From: Candidatus Pelagisphaera sp.
GTDB taxonomy: Bacteria > Verrucomicrobiota > Verrucomicrobiia > Opitutales > Opitutaceae
Direction of reading: 5' to 3'
Assembly: GCA_965655705.1 (NCBI GenBank)
Contig: CBFHHM010000008.1
Coordinates: 77,175 to 101,174 of the forward strand
Length of the DNA stretch: 24,000 nucleotides
Positions 7,712 through 21,812 of the stretch are shown here, one piece after another. The notes under the pieces are model-generated. The model had not been told where the DNA came from, made no database searches, and saw only the letters and a list, made by a program, of their open reading frames with translations. The position numbers and the translations under genes are program-made. Numbering within the stretch: the stretch's first letter is position 1; the number at the start of each line of letters is the position of its first letter.

Positions 7712-7764
7712 CGGTTTGCGATTGGACTACGTGTTTCCGTTAGCATTTTAGAAGGAAAAGCAAG

Positions 7765-8970: not shown

Positions 8971-8987
8971 TCGAATAGAGGGCGATC

Positions 8988-10208
8988 ATGAACGAGGACA
9001 CGGACATGGAAGAGATTCGAATGAAAGTGATTGGCGTGGGCGGAGCGGGAACCAACATGGTGGATCGGCTCATGCTTTCAAATCCGGAAGGCTTGAATCT
9101 AACGGCCCTGAATACCGATCAGCAAGCTCTGGCCAGTTCGCCTATTCTGGAAAAGCACTGTATTGGAAAGACGATTACTCGTAGCCTTGGCGCTAGCGGC
9201 GATCCAGCGGTCGGACGAGAAGCGGCGCTGGCGGATAAGGATTTGCTGAAAAGTCTGGTCGACGGGGTCGACTTGCTTTTCATAACGGCGGGACTAGGAG
9301 GGGGCACGGGTACAGGCGTGGCTCCCGTCTTGGCTGATTTGGCCGCTCAGAAAGGAGCGACCGTTATCGTATTCGTAACGATGCCCTTCACGATCGAACG
9401 GGCCGCGAGAGCGGATGTCGCGAAGAACGGTTTGGAAAAGCTACGCGAAGTTTCAAACGCGGTTATTCCTTTGCCCAACGATTTGCTGATTCAGGAGTCG
9501 GAACCGGATGCGTCCTTGCTCGATGCCTTCTCGAAGGCGGACGAATGGATTGAAAAGGCGATCAAGTCCATTTGGACGATGATGAACCGGACCGGTCTCA
9601 TTAATCTGGACTTTTCGCAGTTGCAGCAAGTGTTTGCCAAACGGGCTGGAAAGACCTTGTTTGGGCTGGGCGAGGGATCAGGCGAAGGGGCTCCGGACGA
9701 GGCGATAGAGAAACTGAAGCTGTGTCCGTTGCTGCATACGCCTGAATTCTCTAAAAAGGCCGATCAGCTCCTCGTCAACCTCGTGGGTGGGGCAAGTCTG
9801 GGAATGAGCGAGACCCAGCGTATCATGGACAGCATTACGGATGCCTTCGGGAAGGATGCAAATGTAGTAATGGGCGCGGTGATAGACGAATCGATGGGGG
9901 ATCGCGTGGAAATTTGCGTAATTGGAACGAGCGATATTAGCGACATTTCCATCTTTCGAGGCCGGAAGCGAACCAAGCGGATTCCTACGACGGAAGAATT
10001 TGCAGAGCCGGAGAAGAAAGAGGTGGCGGAGCCTGGTCGCAAATCGAAGAAGGCGCGTTCGAAGAGCGCAAAGGCCGAGCAACACGAATTTTCCTTCAGC
10101 GAGGGCGAGCCGAGAGGGGAATTCGAAAATACGGTTGGCATCATTTTCGAGGGTCAGGATTTGGATACTCCGACTTACCTGAGAAAAGGCGTTCGCATAC
10201 CGATCTAG
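8988..10208 (+). CDS. ftsZ: Cell-division GTPase FtsZ
   Basis: Motifs: VIGVGGAGTNMV, tubulin signature AGLGGGTGTG, and T7-loop NLDFSQL. A basic disordered linker precedes the conserved C-terminal peptide DLDTPTYLRKG. The first glycine-rich motif reads GGAG rather than the more usual bacterial GGGG. Confidence 0.97.
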   Translation: MNEDTDMEEIRMKVIGVGGAGTNMVDRLMLSNPEGLNLTALNTDQQALASSPILEKHCIGKTITRSLGASGDPAVGREAALADKDLLKSLVDGVDLLFITAGLGGGTGTGVAPVLADLAAQKGATVIVFVTMPFTIERAARADVAKNGLEKLREVSNAVIPLPNDLLIQESEPDASLLDAFSKADEWIEKAIKSIWTMMNRTGLINLDFSQLQQVFAKRAGKTLFGLGEGSGEGAPDEAIEKLKLCPLLHTPEFSKKADQLLVNLVGGASLGMSETQRIMDSITDAFGKDANVVMGAVIDESMGDRVEICVIGTSDISDISIFRGRKRTKRIPTTEEFAEPEKKEVAEPGRKSKKARSKSAKAEQHEFSFSEGEPRGEFENTVGIIFEGQDLDTPTYLRKGVRIPI

Positions 10209-11675: not shown

Positions 11676-14246
11676 ATGAAACGGACTTTGCTTCTGATCT
11701 ATGGAGGGTTGTTGATTGTCTCGGCAAGTTGGAAGGAGTGGAATCCGCGTTTGCCCCCCGCTCTAGAGGGTCAGGCTAGCGTCGCAGTGACGATTGCATC
11801 GGACGAAGAAGCGATCGATATACGGTATTGGGATACGAAAAGGGAAGGGCTGGACGAGCGACCGGCGCTCGTTCTCCTGCATGGGAGTCCCATGGCCTCG
11901 GAATATTTCGATCCGCTTTTAGAGAGCTTGGGAGAGGACTTTCGGTTGATCGTCCCAGATCTCCCGGGGTTCGGCCGGTCTCGAAAACGTATCGACGACT
12001 ATTCTATCGACTCGCACGCTCGGTATTTGCGTTCCTTCCTGGACGCCGCGCAGGTAGAAGAGTATCACTTGCTTGGCTACAGCATGGGAGGGGGCGTTGC
12101 GTTGGCGTATACGCGGTTCGAAGCGGTGGACCCACGTTCTTTGACGCTTGTTTCATCGATTGGCCTGCAGGAATTCGAGCTGCTTGGCGACTACACTCTC
12201 AATCATGCGCTGCACGCGGCTCAGCTATTCGTCTTCTGGTCCTTGGAGTGGCTAACGCCGCACTTCGGATTATTGGATGGGGCAATACTGAACTACCGCT
12301 ATGCTCGGAACTTCTACGATACGGATCAGCGTCCGTTGAGGGACGCCTTGCTCGATTGGGGCGAGCCTGCCCTGATCGTCCACGGCGAACGCGATGGATT
12401 GGTTCCCTTTCAAGCAGCCCAAGCTCATCTCAAGGCGATGCCGCATGCCCAGTTCAAGGCCTACAAAGAAGCGGGGCATTTGCTTTCCTATCGGGAATCC
12501 GATCGGGTTGCGGAAGATATCAAACGATTCGTCTGGAGCGTGGAGACTGGAGAGGCGGCGCGGAGAAGTCCGATGCAAGAGGTGGCCCCGGAAGCCTTGC
12601 CGCGAATGCAGCGAAGTCACATGTTTATGGGAGCGCTCTTAGGCGTGGCCACGTTCGTAAGCGAGGACTTGGCCTGTATTGGGGGTGGTCTCTTGGCGAC
12701 TAAAGGAGCGACTCCGCTGTGGGTAGCCGTGACTGGATGCCTCTTGGGGATTTTTATCGGCGATTTCGCGATTTATCTTATGGGTCGTTTCCTGGGGAGG
12801 TCCGTGTTGGGGCTTCCTGTATTGAATCGAATTCTGTCGCCTGCTCGAGTGGATCGCTGCGCTCGATGGCTGGATGAGAAGGGACTCGTCTGGATTGTAT
12901 CTACGCGTTTCATACCAGGTACGCGGGCTCCGACTTACTTCGTTGCCGGCATGGTCAAGGCGGGACCGATGCGATTCGCCATGGCGTTGCTCGCTGGAGC
13001 GATTCTATGGACTCCTTTGCTTGTGGGGCTTTCCTATTGGTTGGGAGGCGCGTTTCTGAGCTTTTTCGAGGAAAGGGAGGGTTGGGCGTTGCTGGGATTG
13101 CTAGTGGTCTCGCTGGGATTGCTGACGCTCGCCCGGTTGTCGGTCGGCCTATTGAGCTGGCAGGGTAGAAGGCTCTTGTATTCCCGTTTCAAACGGTTGG
13201 CGAGATGGGAGTATTGGCCGATGTGGGTCTTTTATCCGCCCATTCTAATGTACGTATTTTGGCAAATGGTGAAACGGCGTTCAGCGACCTCGTTGACATG
13301 CGTCAATCCATGTATGCCAGCGAGCGGCTTGGTTTATGAATCGAAAAGCGAGATCCTGGCCCATTTAGAGCGTTTCGAAGCGCCAATCGGCCGATTCGCA
13401 TTGATCCCTTTGCGATGGGAAAGGGAGCGAAAGGGCGCGGCGCTGGGCTCATTCATGAAGCGAAACAATTTGAAGTTCCCGGTCGTTCTCAAGCCGGATG
13501 CGGGACAGAGAGGGCAGGGAGTTGACATTGTCCATTCGGAGCAGGAGGCCATGGCGTTTTTCGATTCGCAGCTGGAATCGACGGTTGCCCAAGAATATCT
13601 CCCCGGTAACGAGTACGGCATTTTCTACTACCGACTTCCAGGCCATGGAAAAGGCGAGATCCTTTCCGTTACGGACAAGAGACTTATCGAGGTCGTCGGA
13701 GATGGAGCGTCGCGTTTGGAACGCTTGATTCTCGCTGATGAGCGAGCGGTCGGAATGGCTCGTTTCTTTCTGGAAGCCCACCGGGATTCGTTGGATAGGA
13801 TTCTGGGGGATGGCGAACGCTATCGGCTTACCCAGCTGGGTACTCATTGCCGTGGGGCGCTCTTTCTGGATGGGGGTCACTTGCGGACACCAGAGTTGGA
13901 AGCCGCTGTGGACGAGATGAGTCGAGACGTGGAGGGATTCTATTTCGGACGCTACGATATTCGGGCGCCTAGCGAAGCGGATCTGAAGGCGGGTCGCAAT
14001 CTAAGGATTATCGAACTCAATGGATTGACCTCCGAGTCAACTCACATGTATGACCCGAAACATAGTCTTTTCTACGCTTACAAGGCCTTGTTTCGGCAAT
14101 TCGAAATCGCCTTTGAAATAGCCGACATAAATCGCGCCGCAGGGATAGAGGCCGACCGTTTCAGGTCATTGCTTCGACTGGCGCATTGCTATTGGAAAGG
14201 AATGCCGTCTGGACGAGATGGAAGCGAATCGCCAGCGCAGCGTTAG
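11676..14246 (+). CDS. Tri-domain membrane protein: alpha/beta-hydrolase + DedA/VTT (SNARE-associated) membrane domain + ATP-grasp ligase
   Basis: N-terminal anchor MKRTLLLIYGGLLIVSA. The hydrolase (~11840-12550) has LVLLHGSPMAS, nucleophile elbow GYSMGG, HGERDGLVP and EAGHLL. The DedA/VTT part (~12590-13120) has FVSEDLACIGGGLLA, GDFAIYLMGRFLGR and STRFIPGTRAPTYFVAGM, followed by further TM helices. The ATP-grasp (~13360-14200) has FPVVLKPDAGQRGQGV, EYLPGNEYGIFYY and FGRYDIRAPS...IIELNGLTSESTHMYDP. Confidence 0.8.
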   Translation: MKRTLLLIYGGLLIVSASWKEWNPRLPPALEGQASVAVTIASDEEAIDIRYWDTKREGLDERPALVLLHGSPMASEYFDPLLESLGEDFRLIVPDLPGFGRSRKRIDDYSIDSHARYLRSFLDAAQVEEYHLLGYSMGGGVALAYTRFEAVDPRSLTLVSSIGLQEFELLGDYTLNHALHAAQLFVFWSLEWLTPHFGLLDGAILNYRYARNFYDTDQRPLRDALLDWGEPALIVHGERDGLVPFQAAQAHLKAMPHAQFKAYKEAGHLLSYRESDRVAEDIKRFVWSVETGEAARRSPMQEVAPEALPRMQRSHMFMGALLGVATFVSEDLACIGGGLLATKGATPLWVAVTGCLLGIFIGDFAIYLMGRFLGRSVLGLPVLNRILSPARVDRCARWLDEKGLVWIVSTRFIPGTRAPTYFVAGMVKAGPMRFAMALLAGAILWTPLLVGLSYWLGGAFLSFFEEREGWALLGLLVVSLGLLTLARLSVGLLSWQGRRLLYSRFKRLARWEYWPMWVFYPPILMYVFWQMVKRRSATSLTCVNPCMPASGLVYESKSEILAHLERFEAPIGRFALIPLRWERERKGAALGSFMKRNNLKFPVVLKPDAGQRGQGVDIVHSEQEAMAFFDSQLESTVAQEYLPGNEYGIFYYRLPGHGKGEILSVTDKRLIEVVGDGASRLERLILADERAVGMARFFLEAHRDSLDRILGDGERYRLTQLGTHCRGALFLDGGHLRTPELEAAVDEMSRDVEGFYFGRYDIRAPSEADLKAGRNLRIIELNGLTSESTHMYDPKHSLFYAYKALFRQFEIAFEIADINRAAGIEADRFRSLLRLAHCYWKGMPSGRDGSESPAQR

Positions 14247-15016
14247 ATACTGGAGTCTTCGGCAATGGGGGCTCGTTCCGCGGTACTGCCTTTGATGCCT
14301 CGCTTTATGAATTGAACGACTTCATCGTCTTCCTTCAGGCGAATGCTTTGATTGCTGCCCGTATCTTCGCCGACGTAGTCCGCAACCGAGGCGGCCATAA
14401 TAGGCAAGTATTCGCGCAGGTCGTCGTTTTCGTCGTAGTTGCGTACGCGTACGCTCCAGATTTCCTGAGCGGGAATGTCGCTTGAGATGGAATCGAGCAT
14501 ATTCTCCTTAGCGGTCAATTCCATGTACTTTTCGTTCACGACCACAGAAACAAGACGTTCCTCGTAGCCTACCAATTCGCGGCTTCTACGTCCGGGAACC
14601 CTCACGGTGTAAGTAATGATTCGACCCGTTTTCGGGTCTCGCTGCTGGACCGTTTGGATCCGGTCCGGCTCTTGGATAGTTGCGAATACCGGTTCTTCGA
14701 CTACTTTGAATTCCCGTCGAGGCGGTTCCATGCCGTAGTCGACCTCGATTACCATGTCGGCCTCGGTGACCTCGATCGCCTCGTACATGCCCTTGCTTGA
14801 CAGGGCCGTTTTGATATACTCGACGGTTTCCTTGTAGCGGAGATCGTTGACGTCCTGCTCGGGATCGCGTGGCACGATCACGTAGGTTTCCGCATCCTCA
14901 ATCGTTGGGTTCTTGATCGCGTCGACCTGCATTTCGTAGGTCGTATTGCATCCCGCTAGGAGAAATCCTAGCAATGCTCCAACGATCAAAGCAGGATGTT
15001 TTTGGCGGGAGGTCAT
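14243..15016 (-). CDS. Lipoprotein of unknown function
   Basis: Canonical lipoprotein signal MTSRQKHPALIVGALLGFLLAGC, with lipobox LAGC. The mature part is acidic and soluble, with no motif I recognise confidently; a loose DUF4136-like flavour is not asserted. Its 3' end overlaps the convergent 856-aa gene by 4 nt. Confidence 0.7.
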   Translation of the reverse strand: MTSRQKHPALIVGALLGFLLAGCNTTYEMQVDAIKNPTIEDAETYVIVPRDPEQDVNDLRYKETVEYIKTALSSKGMYEAIEVTEADMVIEVDYGMEPPRREFKVVEEPVFATIQEPDRIQTVQQRDPKTGRIITYTVRVPGRRSRELVGYEERLVSVVVNEKYMELTAKENMLDSISSDIPAQEIWSVRVRNYDENDDLREYLPIMAASVADYVGEDTGSNQSIRLKEDDEVVQFIKRGIKGSTAERAPIAEDSSI

Positions 15017-15045: not shown

Positions 15046-15645
15046 TCAGGGAGCGGTGCCGTCACTGGCGTCGATATTGCCTTCCGAACCTTCGAGTTCG
15101 GCGAGCTCCTTTTCCAGTCGTTCGATTTCAGCGAGGGCGTCCTTTTCACGCTCCTCGGCTTCATCCAAGGCCTTTTTCCGATCTATCGCCGCTTGTCGCT
15201 TGGCTTGAAGGACTTTGAGCCGCGCTTCGGCGGTCTCCGCCCGCCCGGACATCTCGTCCAATTCCTCGTTTGAAATGCGAAACCCCTCGGCTATGTCCAA
15301 TTCCTCCTGCAGGTCCGCCTTCTCCTTGTCGATCGCTCGCTTTTGCATGGCGATGGCTTGATTGTAGGCCCGTTGCTGAGCGAGCGTATCCTGACGTTTC
15401 CGCTCCTTGCCTTCCTGGATGGCGCCAATGGTAGCGCCGACAATCGCTCCCGCTGCCCCTGCGGCGGCAATGCCACCCGCATCTTGGCCCGTTACGGCTC
15501 CGCCTATGGCGCCCACGGCAGCGCCCGCCCCGGCTCCTTTAACCGTTTTGGAAGCGGCTGGCCCCGCGCATCCCCAATGAAAGGCGAGCAAGGCAAGGCC
15601 GACTAGCGTGGCAGCTGTCTTTCCGAGTATTTTCGACCGATTCAT
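15046..15645 (-). CDS. Secreted/lipoprotein with glycine-zipper segment and long coiled coil
   Basis: Signal-like N-terminus MNRSKILGKTAATLVGLALLAFHWGC; the Cys could be lipidated, but the lipobox is atypical. A Gly/Ala zipper follows (GAGAGAAVGAIGGAVTGQDAGGIAAAGAAGAIVGATIGAI), then ~110 aa of charged heptad-like helix (EKADLQEELD...LAEIERLEKELAELE). It lies 29 nt upstream of the 14243-15016 gene, so they are probably co-transcribed. Confidence 0.7.
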   Translation of the reverse strand: MNRSKILGKTAATLVGLALLAFHWGCAGPAASKTVKGAGAGAAVGAIGGAVTGQDAGGIAAAGAAGAIVGATIGAIQEGKERKRQDTLAQQRAYNQAIAMQKRAIDKEKADLQEELDIAEGFRISNEELDEMSGRAETAEARLKVLQAKRQAAIDRKKALDEAEEREKDALAEIERLEKELAELEGSEGNIDASDGTAP

Positions 15646-15877
15646 ACTATTCCTGTAAATTCACTACGCAATCGCTGCTTGGATTGGATTCGTTGTTATG
15701 CGAGAAATGTAGAGGTTTACCTGACATTTGTAAATCCGCTTTGTTGCTGTAATTTTTAACTGAATCCGCAACCATTCTATCGTCGTAGAGATTAACGTAA
15801 CGAATGCTGGAATTAATGCGAGCTTCCGCTTAGTTTTCGGAGCGATTTGCAATCCATTCAAGGGCATTGAATAAATT
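15646..15877. promoter_or_regulatory. AT-rich divergent intergenic region (probable promoters for the lipoprotein pair and the MotA-like operon)
   Basis: This 232-nt gap is the longest non-coding gap in the window and is visibly AT-richer than its flanks. It lies between divergently oriented genes. TGTAAAT occurs twice (15654-15660 and 15729-15735), there is a TTGGATTGGATT tandem at 15680-15691, and TTGCAA (15847-15852) is followed 17 nt later by AATAAA just before ATG 15878. Confidence 0.4.
15706..15734 (-). promoter_or_regulatory. Candidate sigma70-like promoter for the minus-strand lipoprotein genes
   Basis: On the minus strand it reads TTTACA, a 17-nt spacer, then TACATT, about 60 nt upstream of ATG 15645. 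This is a consensus resemblance only, and the host's promoter rules are unknown. Confidence 0.25.
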
Positions 15878-16726
15878 ATGAAAAACAAAGGGTTTTATTC
15901 CCGCGACTTCATGGTCCAGTTCCTGGGCCTCTTCGTTTCCATTATCGTCGTCACTGCCGTCTACAAAGGCTATATTTGGCCCACGGCCGACGAGGTGAAG
16001 ATCACCAACGAAATACGAGCCAGCCAAAACCCGGATGGAAGCCACGTTCCGGAGAAGTCGATCGCCTTGCTTCTAGAAAATGCAGAGCAAATGGCCTGTC
16101 TCATTCTTATGATGTGGGCGACGATCATAATCGTGTTCAAATTTCTCAAGCTGAGTGGGGAGCAGGCGATGGCGGACCACGCCTTTCTCAAGACGGCTCG
16201 CGGCGAACGAATCATTCCGGAAGACGCGTTAGCCCACTACAAAGAGGTGGAGAGTCAATTGAGACGCGCCCCGCGGTTGCGCGGGAAGATTCTCCCAGAC
16301 GTTATTCTGGCGGCCCTTCATCGATTCGATGCGACGCGTTCGATCCAGGATGCGGCCCACGCGGTAAGCGAGCGAACGGAAATGGCCTATGAACAGCTCG
16401 AGTCGGACCTGTCTCTGGTCCGCTACATCGCTTGGGCGATTCCGTCCGTAGGATTTATCGGCACCGTGCGCGGCATTAGCGAGGCCCTCGGGCAAGCGGA
16501 TATGGCGATTCAAGGCGACATCAGTGGGGTTACTTCCAGCCTAGGCTTGGCCTTTAATTCGACCTTCATCGCCTTGCTGCTTAGCATCGGGCTCATGTTG
16601 CTGGTGCATCTCTTGCAGTCGCGTCAGGAATCGCTGGTGATCGAGCTTGAGGATCTAGCGACCAAGAAGGTGATCGGCTTAATGAAAACGCCGACCAATG
16701 AAGAATCCAGTATCAGCTTTAGCTAG
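15878..16726 (+). CDS. MotA/TolQ/ExbB-family ion-channel (stator A-type) subunit
   Basis: The C-terminal half carries the family signature: YIAWAIPSVGFIGTVRGISEALGQA, then SSLGLAFNSTFIALLLSIGLMLLVHLL (compare A-P-x-x-G-L-L-G-T-V-x-G and the Thr-containing last TM of ExbB/TolQ). There are two N-terminal TM helices (FMVQFLGLFVSIIVVTAVY and MACLILMMWATIIIVF) and a ~95-aa charged loop before TM3. No SD precedes ATG 15878. Confidence 0.85.
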   Translation: MKNKGFYSRDFMVQFLGLFVSIIVVTAVYKGYIWPTADEVKITNEIRASQNPDGSHVPEKSIALLLENAEQMACLILMMWATIIIVFKFLKLSGEQAMADHAFLKTARGERIIPEDALAHYKEVESQLRRAPRLRGKILPDVILAALHRFDATRSIQDAAHAVSERTEMAYEQLESDLSLVRYIAWAIPSVGFIGTVRGISEALGQADMAIQGDISGVTSSLGLAFNSTFIALLLSIGLMLLVHLLQSRQESLVIELEDLATKKVIGLMKTPTNEESSISFS

Positions 16727-16738
16727 AAACGTTCGTCT

Positions 16739-18202
16739 ATGTCTACTTTGGGAATTGAATTGAGCGATGTGGGCGTCAACGCGGTCTTGATCGACTCGAG
16801 CGGCTCCTCGCAAATCGTTTCGTTGAGCGGGGATGAGGAAGCGATGCCCGCTTGCGCCTACGCTCGGGCGGGCGAACTGTGGTTTGGGCCGGAAGCTCAG
16901 GAAATGGCTTTCGTATACCCACGTCGCACCTGCTCGGAGTTTATTGACGATCTGTCATTCCAGTCCACCAATTTGGATGGCCACTACCGGAAGATAATGT
17001 ATTCGCAATTGGCGTACAGGTTTTTCCAAGAGCTGCTCTCGAAGGTGGAGGAGGAAGCGGGGGCTGTGAGGCAGTGCGTCATTGCGGTTCCGGGCCATTA
17101 CCTCGAGAGGAACGAGCGTTCGGAAGAGCGACTGGGATTGCTGCTGGGTATTCTCGGCGACCTGGGGGTTCCCGTAGCCGGTATCGTCGACATGGCAGCG
17201 GCGGCTCTTTACAGCGAAGGGCTTTGGAATGTGCCGGAGGGAGAACGCGTGTTCCATGTCGATTTGCTCGCCCATGCGACTCATATTTCGGTGTTCCACA
17301 AACGGGGAGGGTTGGAACGCGTCAATTTCACTCGGCTGCCGCAGCACGGATTCAGTAAAATGCTGGAGCGGTTTACGGCGTCGATGTCGAATCGCTTCCT
17401 GGCCGAAACGTCTTTCGACATCACTGAAGATCGGCAAATCGAGCGGGCCTTCCATGCTCAGACGCGTGAGATGCTCTTCAACCTCGGCAAGGTCAACGAA
17501 GCGAACTTGGAAGTTTCGACGCGCGAGAAGTCGCGGCAGATGATGATTTCCAAGGAAATGGCCACGCTAGAGTTGGAGCCGCAAGTAAAGCTGGTGACCC
17601 AGATGATTCTCAGAGCGGTGAACGACTTCGCCAATAGCAGCGACGAGATTCAAATCGCCCTTTCAAGTCGCGCCGCTATGATTCAGGGACTGAAGGAATC
17701 GATCGTATCCCAGGGAATGGGGGAGGTCATGGAATTGCCTCCGGAGAGCGGCGCATTTGGAGTTGCCAATTACGGCAAGGACTGGGAGGTCGTAGATGAC
17801 ATGGGAGAGGCTCGGGTCGAGGTAGGCATTGCTACGGCGGGAATGCTTCAAGCGCCTGAGAAGCCCTCGGCAGTGGCCTCGCTGCGTTTGATTCGAGAAG
17901 GTCGATCGCTCAATCCGACGCACATCGTATGCGATGGCTTGGCCTATCGGCTTTCGGGCGATTCCTTTTTGGTAGGAATCGGCGAAAGCGATCGATTCGA
18001 TTTGGTCGCGGATAGAGAGAGTTCCGGGGAGCCCGTAGGTCTATTTCGATTGAATTTGAGCGAAGATCGGTGGAATATCGAAGCGATGGAAGGAGCGAAG
18101 TTGGGGGAAATCGGAGAGACGGGTTTGAAAGCGGGCGATGCGGTGGAGCTTCGCTTGGTCTCGACCCGCAAGCGACTCGCGCTCGTCCACTGCATCGAAT
18201 AG
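16739..18202 (+). CDS. Hsp70/actin-fold protein with degenerate nucleotide-binding motifs and an FHA-like C-terminal domain
   Basis: By eye it is colinear with the DnaK NBD. Matches (DnaK in brackets): LGIELSDVGVNAVLID (IGIDLGTTNS), MPACAYARAGELWFGPEAQ (TPSIIAY..GETLVGQPAK), CVIAVPGHY (AVITVPAYF), GVPVAGIVDMAAAALY (GLEVKRIINEPTAAALAY), VFHVDLLAHATHISVF (VYDLGGGTFDISI), IQIALSSRAAMIQGL (VILVGGQTRMPMV) and PPESGAFGVANYG (NPDEAVAIGAAVQG). There is no signal peptide. The last ~90 aa (~17920-18199) form a beta-rich region with an FHA-like pattern (FLVGIGESDRFDLV...LKAGDAVELR). Confidence 0.72.
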   Translation: MSTLGIELSDVGVNAVLIDSSGSSQIVSLSGDEEAMPACAYARAGELWFGPEAQEMAFVYPRRTCSEFIDDLSFQSTNLDGHYRKIMYSQLAYRFFQELLSKVEEEAGAVRQCVIAVPGHYLERNERSEERLGLLLGILGDLGVPVAGIVDMAAAALYSEGLWNVPEGERVFHVDLLAHATHISVFHKRGGLERVNFTRLPQHGFSKMLERFTASMSNRFLAETSFDITEDRQIERAFHAQTREMLFNLGKVNEANLEVSTREKSRQMMISKEMATLELEPQVKLVTQMILRAVNDFANSSDEIQIALSSRAAMIQGLKESIVSQGMGEVMELPPESGAFGVANYGKDWEVVDDMGEARVEVGIATAGMLQAPEKPSAVASLRLIREGRSLNPTHIVCDGLAYRLSGDSFLVGIGESDRFDLVADRESSGEPVGLFRLNLSEDRWNIEAMEGAKLGEIGETGLKAGDAVELRLVSTRKRLALVHCIE

Positions 18203-18214
18203 GAGAGCCAAGGC

Positions 18215-19282
18215 ATGAAACGGAAAAAGCGGGATACGGAAATTTTCAGTCTGTCCTTTTTGGACTGCATTTGCTGCGGCTTTGGAGCCGTGCTGCTTTT
18301 GTTCGTGCTCACGGTGGGCAAGAAGTCGGATACGCTGATCGATATCAAAGCGAAGATCGAGCAGGTCATTGGCCAGATGGAGAACGACCTTTCGGATAAG
18401 GACAAGGAGCTGAAAAGCCTACAGCGCTCCTTGACGACCTTGAGAAATACCAACCGCACCTCGGAGGAAGAAATCGTAGTCAAAAAGAAGATGCAGACCG
18501 AGCTCGAAGACGAGTTCGCCCTTTTGCTGGCTCAACTTTCCTCGATGGAGGAGGACTTGGGTAAGCTGTTGGACGACAAGGAAAACATGCCTATGCAAGA
18601 GGAGGAGCCGCCTATTCCGATCGTTAATCCAGTGCGGCGGCAGTACCTGACAGGGTTCGATATCCAGGGAGATAATGTGCTTTTCCTGATCGAGGCTTCG
18701 GGCGGTATGATGGATGACACAACCGAGAAAGCGTCGGCTCGCCTGAGCGATTCCGACGAGGATAAGCGCAATGCGCCGAAATGGCTTCAAGTGAAGAAAG
18801 GCATGCGCTGGCTGATCGCCAACTTGAAGCCGACTTCGCGGTACAAAATAATGCTTTTCAACGAAGAGATTACGACGATCGATACACGCTACGGAACGGA
18901 TTGGATCGATCCGTCCGATCGAGACACCACCAAGGATATCCTCGACCAGTTGGATGATGTGGTGCCGGAGAAAGGGGCCAACCTGGAGAAGGCCTTCTCC
19001 ATGGCGAGCGATCTGCCGGTGGAACCGGACCGCATTGTATTGATTGTAGACGGCTTGCCGACTTTGGCCGATAGCTACTCCACGGGAAGCAACGTCACGG
19101 ACGACCACGACCGCATCAACATGTTTCGCGTGGCCAAGAAAGCGCTGATCGTGCAGGCGCCGGTCAATATTCTGCTTTATCCAATGAAGATGGACCCGGG
19201 CGCTGCCGTTCACTACTGGCGCTTGGCGGACGATCAGGGTGGGGCGATGGTTTGTCCTTCCAGATCCTGGCCGAACACATGA
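18215..19282 (+). CDS. ExbD/TolR-like TM anchor + coiled coil + vWA domain protein, paralogue A (degenerate MIDAS)
   Basis: Basic tip MKRKKRDTE, then TM IFSLSFLDCICCGFGAVLLLFVL with Asp17 (18263-18265). A charged heptad-like helix spans ~18326-18590. The vWA pattern is NVLFLIEASGGMMD (18692-18706, where DxSxS would be), YKIMLFNEE, GANLEKAFSMA, RIVLIVDGLPT, VNILLYP and YWRLADDQGGAMV. Confidence 0.8.
   Translation: MKRKKRDTEIFSLSFLDCICCGFGAVLLLFVLTVGKKSDTLIDIKAKIEQVIGQMENDLSDKDKELKSLQRSLTTLRNTNRTSEEEIVVKKKMQTELEDEFALLLAQLSSMEEDLGKLLDDKENMPMQEEEPPIPIVNPVRRQYLTGFDIQGDNVLFLIEASGGMMDDTTEKASARLSDSDEDKRNAPKWLQVKKGMRWLIANLKPTSRYKIMLFNEEITTIDTRYGTDWIDPSDRDTTKDILDQLDDVVPEKGANLEKAFSMASDLPVEPDRIVLIVDGLPTLADSYSTGSNVTDDHDRINMFRVAKKALIVQAPVNILLYPMKMDPGAAVHYWRLADDQGGAMVCPSRSWPNT
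18245..18325 (+). repeat. Paralogous 81-nt segment (TM anchor of vWA paralogue A)
   Basis: By hand alignment to 19306-19386, 61 of 81 nt and 22 of 27 codons (amino acids) are identical. The rest of the two genes is far more diverged. Confidence 0.8.
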
Positions 19283-20394
19283 GACGCAAGCGTTCCACTC
19301 AAGTTTTCAGCTTGTCCTTTCTGGACGTGATTTGCTGCGGATTCGGAGCGATCATTCTGCTCTTCGTCATCACCATGGGCAAGAAGACCAAGGAGATCAC
19401 GAATTTGCGGATAGCCTTGGAGCGTATCATCCAACAGCGCATGCTGCAGCTCAACGAATATGAAATTCGTACGGAAGAGTTGGCCCTGCTTATTCAGCTC
19501 GAAAGGGACAAGGATAACGAAAAGAAGATCGTGGAGGAGGATTTGGACGCGGTTATCGCGAAGCTCAAAGAGCAGATAAACGATAAGGAGTTCAGCAAAG
19601 ACAAGTTCGTCACCGATATCGAACAGCTGGAAAAGGAGTTGGCGGTGATGCAAACCGATCCTGAGATCGAACAAAAGGTTCTCGAGGTAACCCCGGTCGG
19701 GGTGCCGGTCGAGAGCAATCACATCGCATTCGTAATCGATACGTCAGGCAGTATGCGCGATCCCAATACGCGTTTGGTTTGGGGATACGTAATACAGAAG
19801 TTCGAGGAAACCTTGGATTCCTATCCGGAGGTCAAGGGCATTCAATTGCTCGATGCCAACGGGCGTTTCATTATCGGAAGAGGCATGGGCAGTCGGTGGA
19901 TGCCGGACAATCGCGAGACCCGCGAGTACATGGTGCGAACCTTGCGACTGTATCCCTACGATAGCGAAAGCAATCCTGTACCGGGCATCGCCCAGGCGAT
20001 CCGGCGCTTGGCGGACCCCGGCGACGAGGAAATGGAAATGGGAATCTACGTATTCGGCGATGAGTTTACCGGTCGATCCGAGCCCGTTTTGAATACACTC
20101 GATAAACTCAATCAAGACAATGAGGGCGAGCGCATGGCCCGCATCAATGCGATCGGCTTTCCGAATCTGATTCGCAATACGCTTTCCTTGAGCCAGTCTG
20201 GCTTGAAGTTCGCCAATCTGATGCGCGAGCTGACCTACGAACACGATGGAGCCTTCGTCGCCTTGGAGCGCGAATCGCTGCGCGCTCGGTCCCGCGAAAT
20301 CGAACAACGCTATCCCGCGCCTATTCCCCGGAGAGACCCTCTGGAGCCCTCGATTATCTACGGTCCTCGAGGGGGCGGCATATACGGGCCCTAA
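19279..20394 (+). CDS. ExbD/TolR-like TM anchor + coiled coil + vWA domain protein, paralogue B (intact MIDAS)
   Basis: I place the start at ATG 19279 (ATGA overlap with the upstream stop) because MRRKRSTQVFSLSFLDVICCGFGAIILLFVITMGKK then aligns residue-for-residue with paralogue A; the track's 19252 start adds 9 unaligned residues. The TM Asp16 is at 19324-19326 and the coiled coil spans ~19390-19684. The vWA pattern is HIAFVIDTSGSMRD (DTSGS 19738-19752), SESNPVPGIAQAIRRL, GIYVFGDEFTG, RINAIGFP and LTYEHDGAFVAL. Confidence 0.85.
   Translation: MRRKRSTQVFSLSFLDVICCGFGAIILLFVITMGKKTKEITNLRIALERIIQQRMLQLNEYEIRTEELALLIQLERDKDNEKKIVEEDLDAVIAKLKEQINDKEFSKDKFVTDIEQLEKELAVMQTDPEIEQKVLEVTPVGVPVESNHIAFVIDTSGSMRDPNTRLVWGYVIQKFEETLDSYPEVKGIQLLDANGRFIIGRGMGSRWMPDNRETREYMVRTLRLYPYDSESNPVPGIAQAIRRLADPGDEEMEMGIYVFGDEFTGRSEPVLNTLDKLNQDNEGERMARINAIGFPNLIRNTLSLSQSGLKFANLMRELTYEHDGAFVALERESLRARSREIEQRYPAPIPRRDPLEPSIIYGPRGGGIYGP
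19306..19386 (+). repeat. Paralogous 81-nt segment (TM anchor of vWA paralogue B)
   Basis: Partner of 18245-18325; see that entry. Confidence 0.8.
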
Positions 20395-20567: not shown

Positions 20568-21812
20568 CTATCGTTCGGTGAAGGCGTTCATCTTCGCTCG
20601 CATCAGAGGTTTCAATACATAGTCGAAGACGCTCTTCTTGCCAGTCTTGATGTCGACTTGAGCGACCATTCCGGGAAGGATCTCGAGTTCTTGTTCACTG
20701 GTGCGCAAGGAGCGTTCGCCGGTGCGAACCAAGATGCGATAGTGGCTTTCGCCTTGGTCGTTCATGAACGTGTCGGCGCTGATGCGCTCTACTTCGCCCG
20801 ATAGCCCTCCATAGACGGAGTAGTCGTAGGCGGTCAACTTGACGGTTGCGTCTTGGCCGATTTTGACGAAGGCGATATCCTCCGGGGCGATGTCCGCCTC
20901 GACGAGAAGACTGTCGCCGGTGGGCACGATCTCGAAAAGAGGCGCTCCCGGCTGAAGGATGCCGCCGATCGTTTTGACGTGCAGCTTGTTCACGATTCCC
21001 GAAACGGGAGCTTTGATATCGGTCCGGGCGATCTTGTCTTCGTAGGCGAGCAGCGCTTGTTCCACTTGCTTTAGGCTCGTGCTGTATTCGTTTCGTTGCG
21101 ATACGACTTCGCTCAAATATTCAGAGGACTCCCGTTCCATTTGACCTTCCAAATCGTTGACCATGGCCTCTAGGCGGAGAAGCTCTACGCGGGACACCAC
21201 GCCGGATTCGGCGAGGGGGCGCGACATTTCCAACTCTTGCGTTTTCAGTTCAAGGCTTTTCCCAAGGTGACGTTGACTTGTCTCGATCTGTTCGCGGCGG
21301 GTGTGGAAGAGCAAGGATTCCGCCTCGATTAGATCGGGTCGTTGTTCAGCCAGGACAGCGGGAAAGACAATTTCCGAAGAAGCGCTCAACTCCGCTTCCA
21401 AACGAGAGATCTTTGCCATGAGGTCATTGCGCTCGGCCAGGTTTTCTCGATAGCTGGCTCGGAAAGTCGTGTCGTCGATTTTAGCCAGTCGGCGTCCCTG
21501 CTCTACTCGTTGTCCTTCGCGCACATCGATTCCGGATACGATGCCTCCTTCAAGGCTCTGGACGATTTGCAGACTGCCGGAAGGAATGATCTTGCCTTGC
21601 CCGCGGGTCAGTTCGCTGACCTGCGATTGGTAGGCCCAAAGCAAGCAGGCGACAACCAAGCCCATGATGCTTAGTAGAAGGATGTTCGCGTAGGGCATCT
21701 TCTCCTCGAGAAAGGCGACCTTGCAGTCCGCCACGAAGTCGAGGTCTTCGATTGCGATCGCTTCCCTTTGCGGCCCGGAGACATTTCGTTTGTCTGGCGA
21801 TTCTTGGCTCAT
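20568..21812 (-). CDS. HlyD-family type I secretion periplasmic adaptor (membrane fusion protein)
   Basis: N-terminal TM ILLLSIMGLVVACLLWAY, a long coiled-coil hairpin region, and a lipoyl/barrel region (IKAPVSGIV and FEIVPTGDSLLVEADIAPEDIAFVKIGQDATVKLTAYDY). The family-typical C-terminus is KTGKKSVFDYVLKPL. Its start overlaps the upstream ABC gene's stop by 1 nt (TGATG on the minus strand). Confidence 0.92.
   Translation of the reverse strand: MSQESPDKRNVSGPQREAIAIEDLDFVADCKVAFLEEKMPYANILLLSIMGLVVACLLWAYQSQVSELTRGQGKIIPSGSLQIVQSLEGGIVSGIDVREGQRVEQGRRLAKIDDTTFRASYRENLAERNDLMAKISRLEAELSASSEIVFPAVLAEQRPDLIEAESLLFHTRREQIETSQRHLGKSLELKTQELEMSRPLAESGVVSRVELLRLEAMVNDLEGQMERESSEYLSEVVSQRNEYSTSLKQVEQALLAYEDKIARTDIKAPVSGIVNKLHVKTIGGILQPGAPLFEIVPTGDSLLVEADIAPEDIAFVKIGQDATVKLTAYDYSVYGGLSGEVERISADTFMNDQGESHYRILVRTGERSLRTSEQELEILPGMVAQVDIKTGKKSVFDYVLKPLMRAKMNAFTER

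What the first reader, a model, noticed from the sequence alone, without database searches (positions are those of the whole stretch)
15878..20394. Four-gene operon: MotA/ExbB-like channel, degenerate Hsp70-like protein and two ExbD/TolR-like-anchor/coiled-coil/vWA proteins (candidate new ion-driven 5:2-type motor)
Seen: four + strand genes are separated by 12 nt, 12 nt and a 4-nt ATGA overlap. They are preceded by the window's longest, AT-rich intergenic region and followed by a 173-nt gap before a convergent gene. Gene 1 carries the MotA_ExbB C-terminal signature (AIPSVGFIGTVRG ... GLAFNSTFIALLLSIGLM). Genes 3 and 4 begin with a basic tip and a TM helix I/V-F-S-L-S-F-L-D-x-I-C-C-G-F-G. This mirrors the ExbD/TolR pattern I-N-V-T-P-F-I-D-V-M and puts a membrane-embedded Asp where ExbD D25, TolR D23 and MotB D32 sit. 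In place of an ExbD/TolR periplasmic domain or an OmpA-like peptidoglycan-binding domain, they carry ~90-100 aa of coiled coil and a vWA fold. Established: MotAB, ExbBD, TolQR, GldLM and ZorAB are 5:2 ion-driven rotary complexes, and in the Mot/Exb/Tol types the B-subunit TM Asp couples ion flow. Inference: this operon encodes a further member of that superfamily. Its periplasmic output would be a coiled-coil stalk tipped by vWA/MIDAS ligand-binding heads, with a cytoplasmic Hsp70-fold pseudo-ATPase as scaffold or regulator. I know of no described system with this composition. The function (envelope tethering, adhesion or surface motility, assistance to secretion, or Zorya-like phage defence) cannot be decided from sequence.
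Basis: partly seen in the sequence, partly recalled or inferred. Interest (0 to 1): 0.9.

Follow-up and report, generated by a model that had tools for sequence, protein, structure and literature searches.

The report
MotA-like motor with vWA-headed axle proteins
This four-gene operon most likely encodes a proton-driven membrane motor whose two axle proteins end in adhesive vWA heads in the periplasm, plus a cytoplasmic Hsp70-like/FHA partner; the motor idea was already published as a prediction in 2025, its function is untested, and the Hsp70/FHA partner appears not to have been described.

Summary
Four co-directional genes (15878-20394) have 12, 12 and -4 nt junctions and follow a 232-nt, 39% GC gap.

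- g1 is a MotA/ExbB/TolQ protein. Both pore-lining Thr are invariant.
- g3 and g4 are ancient paralogues. Each has a basic tip, a TM helix FSLSFLDxxCCGFGA (Asp invariant in 78/78 and 84/84 homologues), a stalk of conserved length, and a vWA domain. The MIDAS motif is intact in g4 and degenerate in g3.
- g2 has an Hsp70 nucleotide-binding fold with ruined phosphate loops.

The set is syntenic in Opitutales, Acidobacteriota, Gammaproteobacteria, Desulfobacterota and Myxococcota. In 61 informative loci, g1, g3 and g4 occur in 61 and g2 in 56. Outside Verrucomicrobiota it usually sits in a larger cluster: a PEGA-FGE-sulfatase protein, a TPR protein with or without a Ser/Thr kinase, and a small secreted peptide ending FPVDI. 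In Opitutales two conserved lipoproteins flank it instead.

The claim that no such system is described is outdated. Mol Biol Evol 2025 (PMC12204202) predicted this TolQ-like plus paired "TPH-vWA" motor by computation alone, without mentioning g2.

Verdict: a real, uncharacterised member of a predicted 5:2 motor family. Zorya-like defence is unlikely.

The parts
15646..15877 (.). Divergent AT-rich intergenic region; presumed promoter region for the operon and for the upstream lipoprotein genes.
   Evidence: 232 nt at 39% GC against 55% for the window. It is the longest gap between large ORFs. No Rfam family matches, no conserved small ORF is present, and only weak promoter-like matches were found.
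15878..16726 (+). g1: MotA/ExbB/TolQ-family channel subunit with 4 predicted TM helices. The pore Thr are T196 (16463-16465) and T229 (16562-16564). An invariant cytoplasmic motif RFxxT153xx[IV]QD lies at 16322-16351.
   Evidence: Pfam MotA_ExbB E 3.6e-14, 53.1 bits. NCBIfam TolQ, ExbB and ZorA match weakly. The alignment to E. coli TolQ puts T196 and T229 on TolQ T145 and T178. Both Thr are invariant in 73 orthologues. TM helices were predicted.
16739..18202 (+). g2: cytoplasmic Hsp70-NBD-like pseudo-ATPase (about residues 1-360) with a C-terminal FHA-fold domain (about residues 390-487, 17906-18199). The FHA domain is degenerate in this lineage.
   Evidence: AF2 model pLDDT 86.5. Foldseek matches DnaK, BiP and Hsp110 NBDs at E 1e-19 to 3e-21, TM up to 0.81. 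The family profile hits the DnaK NBD at E 0.006. Of 36 diverse homologues, 23 hit Pfam FHA. The C-terminal profile hits Mtb FhaA and Rad53 FHA at E 3e-8. DLGGGT is replaced by DLLAHAT, and the SxxH and NG residues are absent in the window protein.
18215..19282 (+). g3: B-subunit-like protein. It has a basic N-tip, a TM helix with Asp17 (18263-18265), a coiled-coil stalk (about residues 36-135) and a vWA domain whose MIDAS motif is degenerate (EASGGM, 18692-18709).
   Evidence: Asp is invariant in the full-length sequences among the 120 listed Verrucomicrobial homologues and in 78/78 cross-phylum orthologues. Homologues carry Pfam VWA_3, VWA or VWA_2. The stalk matches coiled-coil proteins. Flank charges indicate N-in topology. 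The MIDAS motif is DxSxS in other phyla but degenerate in Opitutales.
19279..20394 (+). g4: paralogue of g3 with the same architecture. It has Asp16 (19324-19326) and an intact MIDAS motif DTSGSM (19738-19755).
   Evidence: 32% identity to g3 over the N-terminal 177 aa. Orthologues in other phyla are 36-38% identical, closer than g3 is to g4, so the duplication is ancient. Asp is present in 84/84 and DTSGSM in 84/84. The vWA part of the AF2 model has pLDDT 70-92, and Foldseek hits the vWA domains of C2a, factor B, CMG2, integrin I domain and Rpn10.
15046..15645 (-). up1: divergently transcribed lipoprotein (lipobox-like HWGC) with a glycine zipper and a coiled coil. It is a candidate envelope partner specific to Opitutales.
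   Evidence: It is conserved at the same position in Pelagicoccus, Actomonas and Opitutales ASA1. Pfam glycine-zipper families match weakly: E 0.01 for the window protein, down to 4e-6 in the Actomonas orthologue. Any link to the motor is inferred from synteny alone.
14243..15016 (-). up2: DUF4136-like lipoprotein (lipobox LLAGC), conserved next to up1 in Opitutales.
   Evidence: 44-60% identical orthologues occupy the same position in L001-L003. DUF4136 scores E 2e-4, below Pfam's cut-off. It is absent from the loci of other phyla.

Best explanation
The operon encodes an inner-membrane, ion-driven (probably proton-driven) stator-type complex of the MotAB/ExbBD/TolQR class.

Proposed assembly and mechanism:
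- g1 forms the channel ring. By analogy this is a pentamer.
- The Asp-bearing N-terminal helices of g3 and g4 sit inside the ring as a heterodimeric axle.
- Protonation and deprotonation of Asp17 (g3) and Asp16 (g4), against the invariant Thr196/Thr229 ring of g1, would couple ion flow to relative rotation or a power stroke.
- The output is periplasmic. It consists of a g3/g4 helical coiled-coil stalk of fixed length (about 110-125 residues) tipped by two vWA heads.
- The g4 head has an intact metal-ion-dependent adhesion site (MIDAS) and would bind an acidic residue of an envelope partner.
- In Opitutales the candidate partners are the two conserved neighbouring lipoproteins.
- In other phyla the candidates are the co-clustered PEGA-FGE-sulfatase protein, the TPR protein, a lipoprotein, or the small secreted peptide ending in FPVDI.
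- g2 stays in the cytoplasm. It is an Hsp70-fold protein that probably no longer hydrolyses ATP, fused to an FHA-type interaction domain.
- g2 most likely docks on the cytoplasmic face of g1, or on the basic tails of g3/g4, as a scaffold, clutch or regulator. In lineages with a canonical FHA domain and a clustered Ser/Thr kinase this would be under phosphothreonine control.

Shown here: the domain identities, motif conservation, topology signal, ancient paralogy and synteny.
Inferred: the 5:2 stoichiometry, rotation, the ligand, the role of g2 and the physiological function. The function is most plausibly energised force transduction to, or remodelling of, the outer envelope.
For: g1 identity:
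- Pfam MotA_ExbB sits well above its cut-off.
- The TolQ alignment places two invariant Thr on TolQ T145 and T178.

Axle candidates:
- There is no ExbD, TolR or MotB gene in the operon or its orthologues.
- Two paralogous bitopic proteins always follow g1: g1, g3 and g4 occur in 61/61 loci.
- Their TM motif F-S-L-S-F-L-D-x-x-x-C-G-F-G-A has an invariant Asp in 78/78 and 84/84 sequences.
- g3-to-g3 and g4-to-g4 identities across phyla exceed g3-to-g4 identity within a genome. This implies an ancient, maintained heterodimer.

Topology and stalk:
- Net charge is about +2 to +3 on the N flank and about -1 on the C flank. That places the stalk and vWA domain in the periplasm, as for MotB and ExbD.
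- Stalk length is tightly conserved and coiled-coil-like.

Heads:
- The vWA fold is supported.
- The g4 MIDAS motif DTSGSM occurs in 84/84 sequences.

g2:
- Hsp70 NBD fold with degenerate phosphate loops.
- FHA domain.
- Present in 56/61 loci, always between g1 and g3.

Independent support:
- PMC12204202 reports AF3 models in which such helices insert into a TolQ-like pentamer, with the Asp pair ringed by Thr.

Context:
- The genomic setting is housekeeping and envelope-related, not a defence island.
Against: - No experiment exists for any member. PMC12204202 says no deletion phenotypes have been reported for its other vWA transducer family, and describes only predictions for this one.
- Stoichiometry and assembly could not be modelled here because no multimer tool was available.
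- The TM helix profile has no detectable homology to ExbD, TolR or MotB: PDB profile search E > 0.25 and hhalign probability 0.2%. The correspondence of the Asp rests on position and pattern only.
- g2 is missing in five of the 61 informative loci, and in two shorter ones, where g1 abuts g3. An orphan g2 homologue also exists. So g2 is an accessory, not a core part.
- The FHA phosphothreonine-binding residues are lost in the window protein and in many others.
- The link to the lipoproteins or other partners is synteny only.
- I did not directly verify that the Idiomarina seed of the published family is homologous to this locus.
Confidence: 0.65

Rival explanations
1. The complex is a sensor or signalling device rather than a force generator. 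Ligand binding by the periplasmic vWA heads would gate ion flow through the g1/g3/g4 channel, much as peptidoglycan binding unplugs MotB. The state would then be read out in the cytoplasm by the Hsp70-like/FHA protein and, in other phyla, by the Ser/Thr kinase.
For: - The cluster carries cytoplasmic phospho-signalling parts. These are the FHA domain on g2 and a bitopic Ser/Thr kinase-TPR protein in at least one locus.
- The PEGA-FGE protein has a cytoplasmic N-terminal region before its TM helix; its sequence looks FHA-like by eye, untested.
- An invariant cytoplasmic RFxxTxx[IV]QD motif in g1 resembles a pTxx[I/V] FHA target.
Against: - The kinase domain was seen in only one locus examined in full, with kinase-less versions in others.
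- FHA phosphothreonine residues are often lost.
- g2 is dispensable in several lineages.
- All characterised MotA/ExbB-family complexes are energy transducers (established knowledge).
- This reading does not exclude the motor model.
Confidence: 0.15
2. It is a Zorya-like anti-phage defence system, in which a MotA/ExbB-type membrane complex senses envelope perturbation and activates effectors.
For: - g1 gives weak hits to ZorA models: PADLOC ZorA E 2e-4 and NCBIfam ZorA_4 E 0.007. Both are confined to the shared MotA/ExbB core.
- vWA and Hsp70-like domains do occur in some conflict systems (PMC7159879).
Against: - No ZorB, ZorC, ZorD or ZorE homologue and no nuclease or other effector is present. 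g2 to g4 gave only weak PADLOC matches (E 0.0015 or worse) to coiled-coil or helicase models, none to a Zorya component.
- g1 lacks the long ZorA C-terminal tail: 282 aa against model lengths of 413-505.
- The locus lies among housekeeping genes. These are the dcw cluster upstream here, and IMPDH, ribosomal proteins, thymidylate kinase and holB elsewhere.
- Orthologue identities follow taxonomy, with conserved flanking lipoproteins within Opitutales. That pattern is unlike mobile defence islands.
- There were no matches on plasmids.
Confidence: 0.04
3. There is no motor. g3 and g4 are simply membrane-anchored periplasmic vWA proteins, like the BatA/BatB-type proteins. g1 would be an unrelated or merely co-regulated channel protein, and the conserved Asp would serve helix packing or metal binding with the adjacent Cys residues.
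For: - The helix has no detectable homology to ExbD, TolR or MotB.
- The conserved CC/CGFG motif next to the Asp is not a feature of known B subunits.
Against: - g1 is strictly linked to g3 and g4, adjacent in 61/61 loci and often with overlapping stop and start codons.
- No other B-subunit gene is present.
- A charged residue is invariant in the membrane.
- The Thr pair is conserved in g1.
- Published AF3 models place the helices in the pentamer.
Confidence: 0.08

Closest known systems
TolQ-like / 'TPH-vWA' putative motors predicted in Mol Biol Evol 2025;42(6):msaf138 (PMC12204202, section 8, Fig. 4c,d)
   Same: A tolQ-like gene with no tolR/exbD. A heterologous pair of TM-tethered vWA proteins follows it. 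Their helix carries a conserved Asp, predicted by AF3 to sit in the pentamer ringed by Thr. The family is reported in Proteobacteria and Verrucomicrobia and is uncharacterised experimentally. All these features are present here.
   Different: - The paper does not mention the Hsp70-like/FHA gene or the PEGA-FGE-sulfatase, TPR-kinase and small-peptide genes.
- It also does not mention the Opitutales lipoprotein pair or the unequal MIDAS motifs in the pair.
- Its seed was Idiomarina loihiensis. I could not obtain that sequence, so identity of the families rests on matching description plus the presence of Alteromonadales members.
TolQR / ExbBD (Tol-Pal and Ton motors)
   Same: - The A subunit belongs to the same Pfam family, and TolQ is its best PDB sequence match.
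- The two pore Thr are conserved.
- The B-type subunit is bitopic, N-in, with an Asp near the cytoplasmic end of its helix.
- The output is periplasmic.
   Different: - g1 has 4 predicted TM helices, like MotA, rather than 3.
- The B subunits are a heterodimer of paralogues with coiled coil plus vWA, instead of the ExbD/TolR periplasmic domain.
- There is no TonB- or TolA-type third subunit.
- The helix shows no detectable homology.
- A canonical ExbB-ExbD-TonB cluster coexists 3 kb away in one Opitutales genome.
MotAB / PomAB flagellar stators
   Same: A 4-TM A subunit, a B subunit with an essential TM Asp, and a periplasmic anchoring domain on the B subunit.
   Different: There is no OmpA-like peptidoglycan-binding domain and no plug motif was detected. 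There is no flagellar context. The NCBIfam MotA match is only E 0.034.
GldLM / PorLM with the PorK/GldK ring (type IX secretion and gliding)
   Same: A proton-driven inner-membrane motor whose B-type subunit forms a long periplasmic dimer reaching an outer-membrane-associated partner. In other phyla this cluster includes an FGE-sulfatase-fold protein, the fold also found in PorK/GldK (from my own knowledge).
   Different: There is no homology to GldL or GldM. The FGE-sulfatase protein here is an inner-membrane bitopic PEGA-repeat protein and is absent from the window. The resemblance is an analogy only.
ZorAB (Zorya defence)
   Same: A MotA/ExbB-family A subunit with non-canonical accessories; weak ZorA model hits.
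   Different: There is no long ZorA tail, no ZorB peptidoglycan-binding domain and no ZorC/D/E effector. The context is housekeeping.
Hsp70/DnaK nucleotide-binding domain; FHA-domain regulators of envelope machines (for example Fha1/TagH-PpkA in type VI secretion)
   Same: g2 has the Hsp70 NBD fold and an FHA-fold C-terminus. In some loci a membrane Ser/Thr kinase is clustered with it. This echoes threonine-phosphorylation control of T6SS assembly (from my own knowledge).
   Different: - g2 has no substrate-binding domain.
- The phosphate-binding Gly loops are lost, and by the profile alignment the catalytic Lys appears to be lost too.
- The FHA phosphothreonine residues are lost in the window protein.
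- I found no described Hsp70-FHA fusion in the searchable literature.

Membership tests
MotA/ExbB/TolQ channel family (A subunit) | Significant match to the family model over the C-terminal TM hairpin | tested here: met
   Pfam PF01618 at 53.1 bits against a cut-off of 22.9, residues 140-258. The same holds for orthologues in other phyla.
MotA/ExbB/TolQ channel family (A subunit) | Conserved pore-lining Thr residues (TolQ T145/T178 equivalents) | tested here: met
   T196 and T229 align to TolQ T145 and T178 and are invariant in 73 orthologues.
5:2 motor B subunit (MotB/ExbD/TolR) | Single N-terminal TM helix, N-in, with an invariant Asp near its cytoplasmic end | tested here: met
   One TM helix in each of g3 and g4. 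Positive-inside signal. Asp present in 78/78 and 84/84.
5:2 motor B subunit (MotB/ExbD/TolR) | Sequence homology to the ExbD/TolR or MotB families (TM plus periplasmic domain) | tested here: not met
   No Pfam ExbD, MotB_plug or OmpA hit. The helix profile against PDB gives E > 0.25 with no ExbD, TolR or MotB chain listed. hhalign against an ExbD gives probability 0.2%.
5:2 motor B subunit (MotB/ExbD/TolR) | Two B helices inside an A pentamer (5:2 stoichiometry) | not testable with these tools
   No multimer prediction was available. AF3 models of the family are reported in PMC12204202.
TolQ-like/TPH-vWA family of PMC12204202 | A tolQ-like gene adjacent, with no tolR/exbD/motB gene | tested here: met
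   and the orthologous loci.
TolQ-like/TPH-vWA family of PMC12204202 | A heterologous pair of TM-tethered vWA proteins with a conserved Asp in the helix | tested here: met
TolQ-like/TPH-vWA family of PMC12204202 | Homology to the paper's seed proteins (Idiomarina loihiensis) | not tested
   The seed sequences are not in the supplementary text held. Idiomarina was not among the listed hits. Alteromonadales members are present (L086, Thalassotalea, Pseudoalteromonas).
vWA domain with MIDAS | vWA (Rossmann-like) fold | tested here: met
   g4 model against PDB hits the vWA domains of C2a, factor B, CMG2, integrin I domain and Rpn10 at probability 1.0. g3 homologues hit Pfam VWA, VWA_2 or VWA_3.
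vWA domain with MIDAS | DxSxS metal-site motif | tested here: met
   g4 has DTSGSM, found in 84/84 sequences. For g3 the feature is not met in this window (EASGGM), although it is intact (D-x-S-x-S) in g3 orthologues of other phyla.
Hsp70 / actin-like ATPase | Nucleotide-binding-domain fold | tested here: met
   Foldseek E down to 3e-21, TM 0.77-0.81 to DnaK NBDs. Profile against DnaK E 0.006.
Hsp70 / actin-like ATPase | Phosphate-1 and phosphate-2 Gly-rich loops, the adenosine motif, and a substrate-binding domain | tested here: not met
   GIDLGTTNS is replaced by GIELSDVGV, DLGGGT by DLLAHAT, and GGxTR by SSRAA. There is no substrate-binding domain.
FHA domain | Homology to the FHA fold | tested here: met
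   Of 36 family members, 23 hit Pfam FHA. The C-terminal profile hits FHA structures at E 2.7e-8. The window protein aligns throughout.
FHA domain | Phosphothreonine-binding residues (GR, SxxH, NG) | tested here: not met
   These residues are absent in the window protein and in all close relatives. They are retained in about 27 of 70 orthologues elsewhere.
Zorya (ZorAB plus effectors) | ZorA with a long C-terminal tail, ZorB, and ZorC/D/E/F/G partners | tested here: not met
   Only weak core-domain hits to ZorA. g2 to g4 gave only weak PADLOC matches to non-Zorya models. g1 is 282 aa.

The most novel reading that the evidence does not exclude
The four genes are the core of a widespread, unrecognised trans-envelope machine.

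- The Hsp70-fold/FHA protein would be a dedicated cytoplasmic partner (clutch, brake or scaffold) of a MotA-type ring. That would be a new kind of cytosolic interface for 5:2 motors, ancestrally controlled by Thr phosphorylation. A possible target is the invariant g1 motif RFxxTxx[IV]QD.
- The rotating g3/g4 coiled-coil stalk would use a MIDAS-bearing vWA head to pull on a defined partner.
- In Opitutales that partner would be the two lipoproteins.
- Elsewhere it would be the PEGA-FGE-sulfatase protein or the secreted peptide with the invariant FPVDI C-terminus.
- The result would be a third PMF-energised envelope system alongside Ton and Tol-Pal.
Probability: 0.3. Interest if true: 0.8.

Novelty: new member of a known kind. 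Interest (0 to 1): 0.6.

Why it matters
MotA/ExbB-type motors are how Gram-negative bacteria deliver inner-membrane energy to the flagellum, to outer-membrane transporters (Ton), to the dividing envelope (Tol-Pal), to gliding and type IX secretion, and to Zorya defence.

This family replaces the usual B subunit with a heterodimer of coiled-coil/vWA proteins. It is abundant: a search with a gammaproteobacterial g4-type protein returned at least 8000 sequence clusters, the scoring limit. A genome scan confirmed 284 places among the first 600 pattern matches.

The family spans Verrucomicrobiota, Acidobacteriota, Gammaproteobacteria, Desulfobacterota and Myxococcota. No function, phenotype or structure is known. 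Establishing what the vWA heads bind would reveal another PMF-powered envelope process.

Three things here add to the published prediction:
- a conserved cytoplasmic Hsp70-fold/FHA partner;
- a larger conserved gene cluster in other phyla;
- lineage-specific swapping of the presumed periplasmic partners.

Each gives concrete handles for experiments.

Tried and rejected
- **PADLOC:** only weak ZorA core-domain matches plus coiled-coil and helicase noise, so a defence system was rejected.
- **Plasmid tblastn with g3 and g4:** no match, so the system is not plasmid-borne.
- **Literature searches** combining MotA, vWA, Hsp70, FHA, FGE-sulfatase or NCBI product names found nothing beyond PMC12204202. 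The MoxR-vWA and GTPase-Hsp70 conflict systems of PMC7159879 are unrelated in composition.
- **Supplement of PMC12204202:** searched for the Idiomarina vWA sequences; not present.
- **Genome-collection scan with diverse g2 alignments:** The g4 alignment was used instead.
- **Word-index search with g2:** it reached only Puniceicoccaceae, 45 hits. The exhaustive profile search was needed to see the family, 899 representatives.
- **Homology of the helix to ExbD, TolR or MotB:** negative.
- **Sequence search of the g3 profile against PDB:** it found only coiled-coil proteins, not vWA domains.
- **FHA correlation:** I looked for a link between an intact FHA signature and the upstream FGE/TPR genes. 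There is none; many loci have both genes and a degenerate FHA domain.
- **Window checks:** no small FPVDI-type ORF, no RNA family and no homologue of the FGE, TPR, a or b genes.

Full report
**Observation**

The window holds four + strand ORFs exactly where stated.

| Gene | Coordinates | Length |
|---|---|---|
| g1 | 15878-16726 | 282 aa |
| g2 | 16739-18202 | 487 aa |
| g3 | 18215-19282 | 355 aa |
| g4 | 19279-20394 | 371 aa from the ATG that overlaps the g3 stop as ATGA |

- The junctions are 12, 12 and -4 nt.
- The upstream gap 15646-15877 is 232 nt, the longest between large ORFs. It is 39% GC against 55% for the window.
- Downstream, 173 nt separate g4 from a convergent HlyD/ABC-C39 type I secretion pair.
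- The gap holds no Rfam family and no conserved small ORF.

**g1**

- Pfam MotA_ExbB scores 53.1 bits against a cut-off of 22.9.
- NCBIfam gives only sub-threshold TolQ, ExbB, ZorA and MotA matches. g1 therefore belongs to the superfamily but to none of the named equivalogs.
- Hydropathy predicts three clear TM helices, and a fourth lies in the conserved AIPSVGFIGTVRG segment, giving a MotA-like 4-TM topology.
- The best PDB sequence match is E. coli TolQ. That alignment places g1 T196 and T229 on TolQ T145 and T178.
- Both Thr are invariant in 73 orthologues from five phyla.
- The cytoplasmic loop carries an invariant motif, R149-F150-x-x-T153-x-x-[I/V]-Q-D.

**g3 and g4**

- They are paralogues, 32% identical over the first 177 residues.
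- Each begins with a basic tip and one TM helix.
- The helix motif is F-S-L-S-F-L-D-x-[IM]-x-C-G-F-G-A.
- The Asp is present in every full-length sequence among the 120 listed Verrucomicrobial g3 homologues. It is also present in 78/78 g3-type and 84/84 g4-type proteins from other phyla. The few failures there were mis-called ORFs.
- Net charge is +3.2 and +2.3 on the N flank and -1.0 and -1.4 on the C flank. The rest of each protein is therefore predicted to be periplasmic, as in MotB, ExbD and TolR.
- A helical region follows that matches only coiled-coil proteins.
- The length of this region is tightly conserved. It is 121-129 residues from the helix end to the MIDAS motif in g4, and 108-122 residues to the RQYLTG motif in g3.
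- The C-terminal domain is a vWA fold. Pfam VWA, VWA_2 or VWA_3 hits occur in g3 homologues. An AF2 model of g4 has pLDDT 70-92 in that domain. It matches the vWA domains of complement C2a and factor B, CMG2, integrin I domains and Rpn10.
- The g4 MIDAS motif DTSGSM is invariant (84/84). In g3 the motif is D-x-S-x-S in other phyla but degenerate in Opitutales, EASGGM here.
- Across phyla, g3 is closer to g3 (29-33%) and g4 to g4 (36-38%) than g3 is to g4 in one genome. The duplication is therefore ancient and the pair has been maintained.
- A profile of the helix finds no ExbD, TolR or MotB chain in the PDB. hhalign against an ExbD gives 0.2% probability. The correspondence with ExbD D25, TolR D23 and MotB D32 rests on position and pattern, not on demonstrable homology.

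**g2**

- No library recognised g2.
- An AF2 model (pLDDT 86.5) matches DnaK, BiP and Hsp110 nucleotide-binding domains. Foldseek E values reach 3e-21, TM-scores 0.81 and rmsd 3.4-3.9 Å.
- The family profile weakly hits the DnaK NBD by sequence (E 0.006).
- The phosphate-binding loops are gone: GIELSDVGV replaces GIDLGTTNS, DLLAHAT replaces DLGGGT, and SSRAA replaces GGxTR. The profile alignment puts an acidic residue where DnaK has the catalytic Lys. There is no substrate-binding domain. I infer that g2 is not a conventional ATPase.
Of 36 diverse homologues, 23 hit Pfam FHA there. A profile of that domain hits the FHA structures of M. tuberculosis FhaA, Rad53, Ki-67 and GarA at E 3e-8.
- The window protein aligns throughout but lacks the GR, SxxH and NG phosphothreonine-binding residues. 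About 27 of 70 orthologues keep them.
- An exhaustive profile search found 899 representative clusters at E <= 1e-3, most of them full length.

**Synteny**

- The same four genes, in the same order, occur in three Opitutales genomes: Pelagicoccus, Actomonas aquatica and Opitutales ASA1.
- In all three they are preceded by two divergently transcribed lipoprotein genes. These are orthologous to window 15046-15645 (glycine zipper plus coiled coil) and 14243-15016 (DUF4136-like).
- Other flanking genes differ and are housekeeping. One of these genomes has a canonical ExbB-ExbD-TonB cluster 3 kb away.
Of these, 284 were confirmed. The 80 loci kept came from Acidobacteriota, many Gammaproteobacteria, Desulfobacterota and Myxococcota.

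Gene content of the 61 loci with enough upstream DNA:

| Gene | Loci with it |
|---|---|
| g1 | 61 |
| g3 | 61 |
| g4 | 61 |
| g2 | 56 (always between g1 and g3) |
| PEGA-FGE-sulfatase protein | 59 |
| TPR protein | 57 |
| small secreted peptide | 49 |

- The TPR protein carries a cytoplasmic Ser/Thr kinase in at least one locus.
- The small peptide ends in ...[FY]xP[ST]E...D..[VI]x[FY]PxDI.
- Five of the 61 loci, and two shorter ones, lack g2. One orphan g2 homologue exists.
- The window contains none of the extra genes.

**Literature**

- Mol Biol Evol 2025;42(6):msaf138 (PMC12204202) describes a family of TM-tethered vWA proteins, from computation only.
- These proteins co-occur tightly with tolQ homologues and lack tolR/exbD.
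- AF3 places that helix in a TolQ-like pentamer ringed by Thr.
- The family is reported mainly in Proteobacteria and Verrucomicrobia.
- The paper does not mention an Hsp70-like or FHA protein or a kinase. No other paper in the searchable library describes the system.
- I could not retrieve the paper's Idiomarina seed sequences. Membership therefore rests on every described feature being met, plus the presence of Alteromonadales members.

**Mechanism**

The best-supported reading is a PMF-driven stator-type complex.
- A g1 ring surrounds a g3/g4 heterodimeric axle.
- The Asp pair and the Thr ring couple ion flow to movement.
- A fixed-length periplasmic coiled coil presents two vWA heads, one of which always has an intact metal site.
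- The heads bind an envelope partner.
- g2 acts as a cytoplasmic accessory bound to the motor.

The domain calls, conservation, topology signal and synteny are shown. The stoichiometry, rotation, ligand and the role of g2 are inferred. A signalling role is compatible with this reading and cannot be separated from it here.

A Zorya-like defence role is unlikely.
- No effector gene is present.
- There is no long ZorA tail.
- The only matches to Zorya models are weak ZorA core-domain hits for g1.
- The neighbours are housekeeping genes.
- Conservation follows taxonomy.
- There are no plasmid copies.

**Verdict**

- The feature is real and strongly conserved.
- It is a Verrucomicrobial member of a motor family already predicted in print, so it is not categorically new.
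- The family remains experimentally blank.
- This analysis adds a conserved Hsp70-fold/FHA partner, a larger gene cluster in other phyla, and lineage-specific candidate partners.

Noticed in passing
window 14243-15016 (-) and 15046-15645 (-): Two divergently transcribed lipoprotein genes sit just upstream of the operon. One is DUF4136-like; the other has a glycine zipper plus a coiled coil. Both are conserved at this exact position in Pelagicoccus, Actomonas and Opitutales ASA1, and are absent from loci of other phyla. They are candidate outer-envelope partners of the vWA heads.
   Followed up: partly
L004, L006-L087 (e.g. L007:228-7165): Outside Verrucomicrobiota the four genes sit at the end of a larger conserved cluster. 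Its order is protein a, lipoprotein/secreted protein b, a bitopic TPR protein (with an N-terminal Ser/Thr kinase in L007), and a bitopic PEGA-repeat + FGE-sulfatase protein, then g1. None of these genes is in the window.
   Followed up: partly
L007:6959-7165; L006:6862-7020; 49 of 61 informative loci, immediately upstream of g1: A small secreted peptide gene has a variable acidic or basic body and a strongly conserved C-terminus, ...[FY]xP[ST]E..xxD..[VI]x[FY]PxDI-COOH. SFPVDI is the commonest ending. It is a possible MIDAS ligand or processed signal, and I found no description of it.
   Followed up: partly
window 16322-16351 (g1 residues 149-158): The cytoplasmic loop of g1 carries an invariant motif R-F-x-x-T-x-x-[I/V]-Q-D (T in 71 of 73 sequences, S in 2). 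It fits the pTxx[I/V] preference of many FHA domains. It could be the docking or phosphorylation site for g2 and the clustered kinase; this is speculative.
   Followed up: no
window 18692-18709 (g3) versus 19738-19755 (g4): The two vWA heads are unequal in this lineage. g4 keeps DTSGSM, whereas g3 has EASGGM (VEASAGM and VRASGSM in relatives). g3 orthologues in other phyla keep D-x-S-x-S. The loss coincides with the absence of the FGE, TPR and peptide genes in Opitutales.
   Followed up: partly
L047, L049, L050, L054, L085 (also L056, L070); L005: Some lineages (Thiogranum, Sedimenticolaceae, some Desulfuromonadales and 'Deltaproteobacteria') lack g2 altogether, with g1 directly followed by g3. 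Conversely, one metagenomic contig carries an orphan Hsp70-FHA gene with no motor genes nearby.
   Followed up: partly
window 6809-10208: ftsQ (POTRA), ftsA and ftsZ lie about 6 kb upstream, so the operon is near the end of the dcw cluster in this genome. Part of the intervening stretch (TANGO2-like gene, VTT-domain protein) is shared with Pelagicoccus, but none of it with Actomonas or ASA1. No functional link is inferred.
   Followed up: partly
window 11676-14246 (+): An 856-aa protein fuses an alpha/beta-hydrolase domain with a VTT/DedA-type membrane domain and a long uncharacterised C-terminal region. An 814-aa protein with a VTT domain occupies the same position in Pelagicoccus.
   Followed up: no
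window 20568-23926 (-): A convergent type I secretion pair lies downstream: a HlyD-family adaptor and an ABC exporter with an N-terminal C39 peptidase domain (bacteriocin/RTX-type exporter). It is not conserved next to the operon in relatives.
   Followed up: no
g3/g4 TM helix (window 18242-18316, 19306-19374): Besides the Asp, a Cys four residues downstream (D-x-x-x-C-G-F-G) is essentially invariant (77/78 and 84/84), and a second Cys often precedes it. Membrane-embedded conserved Cys residues are not a feature of MotB, ExbD or TolR and remain unexplained.
   Followed up: no
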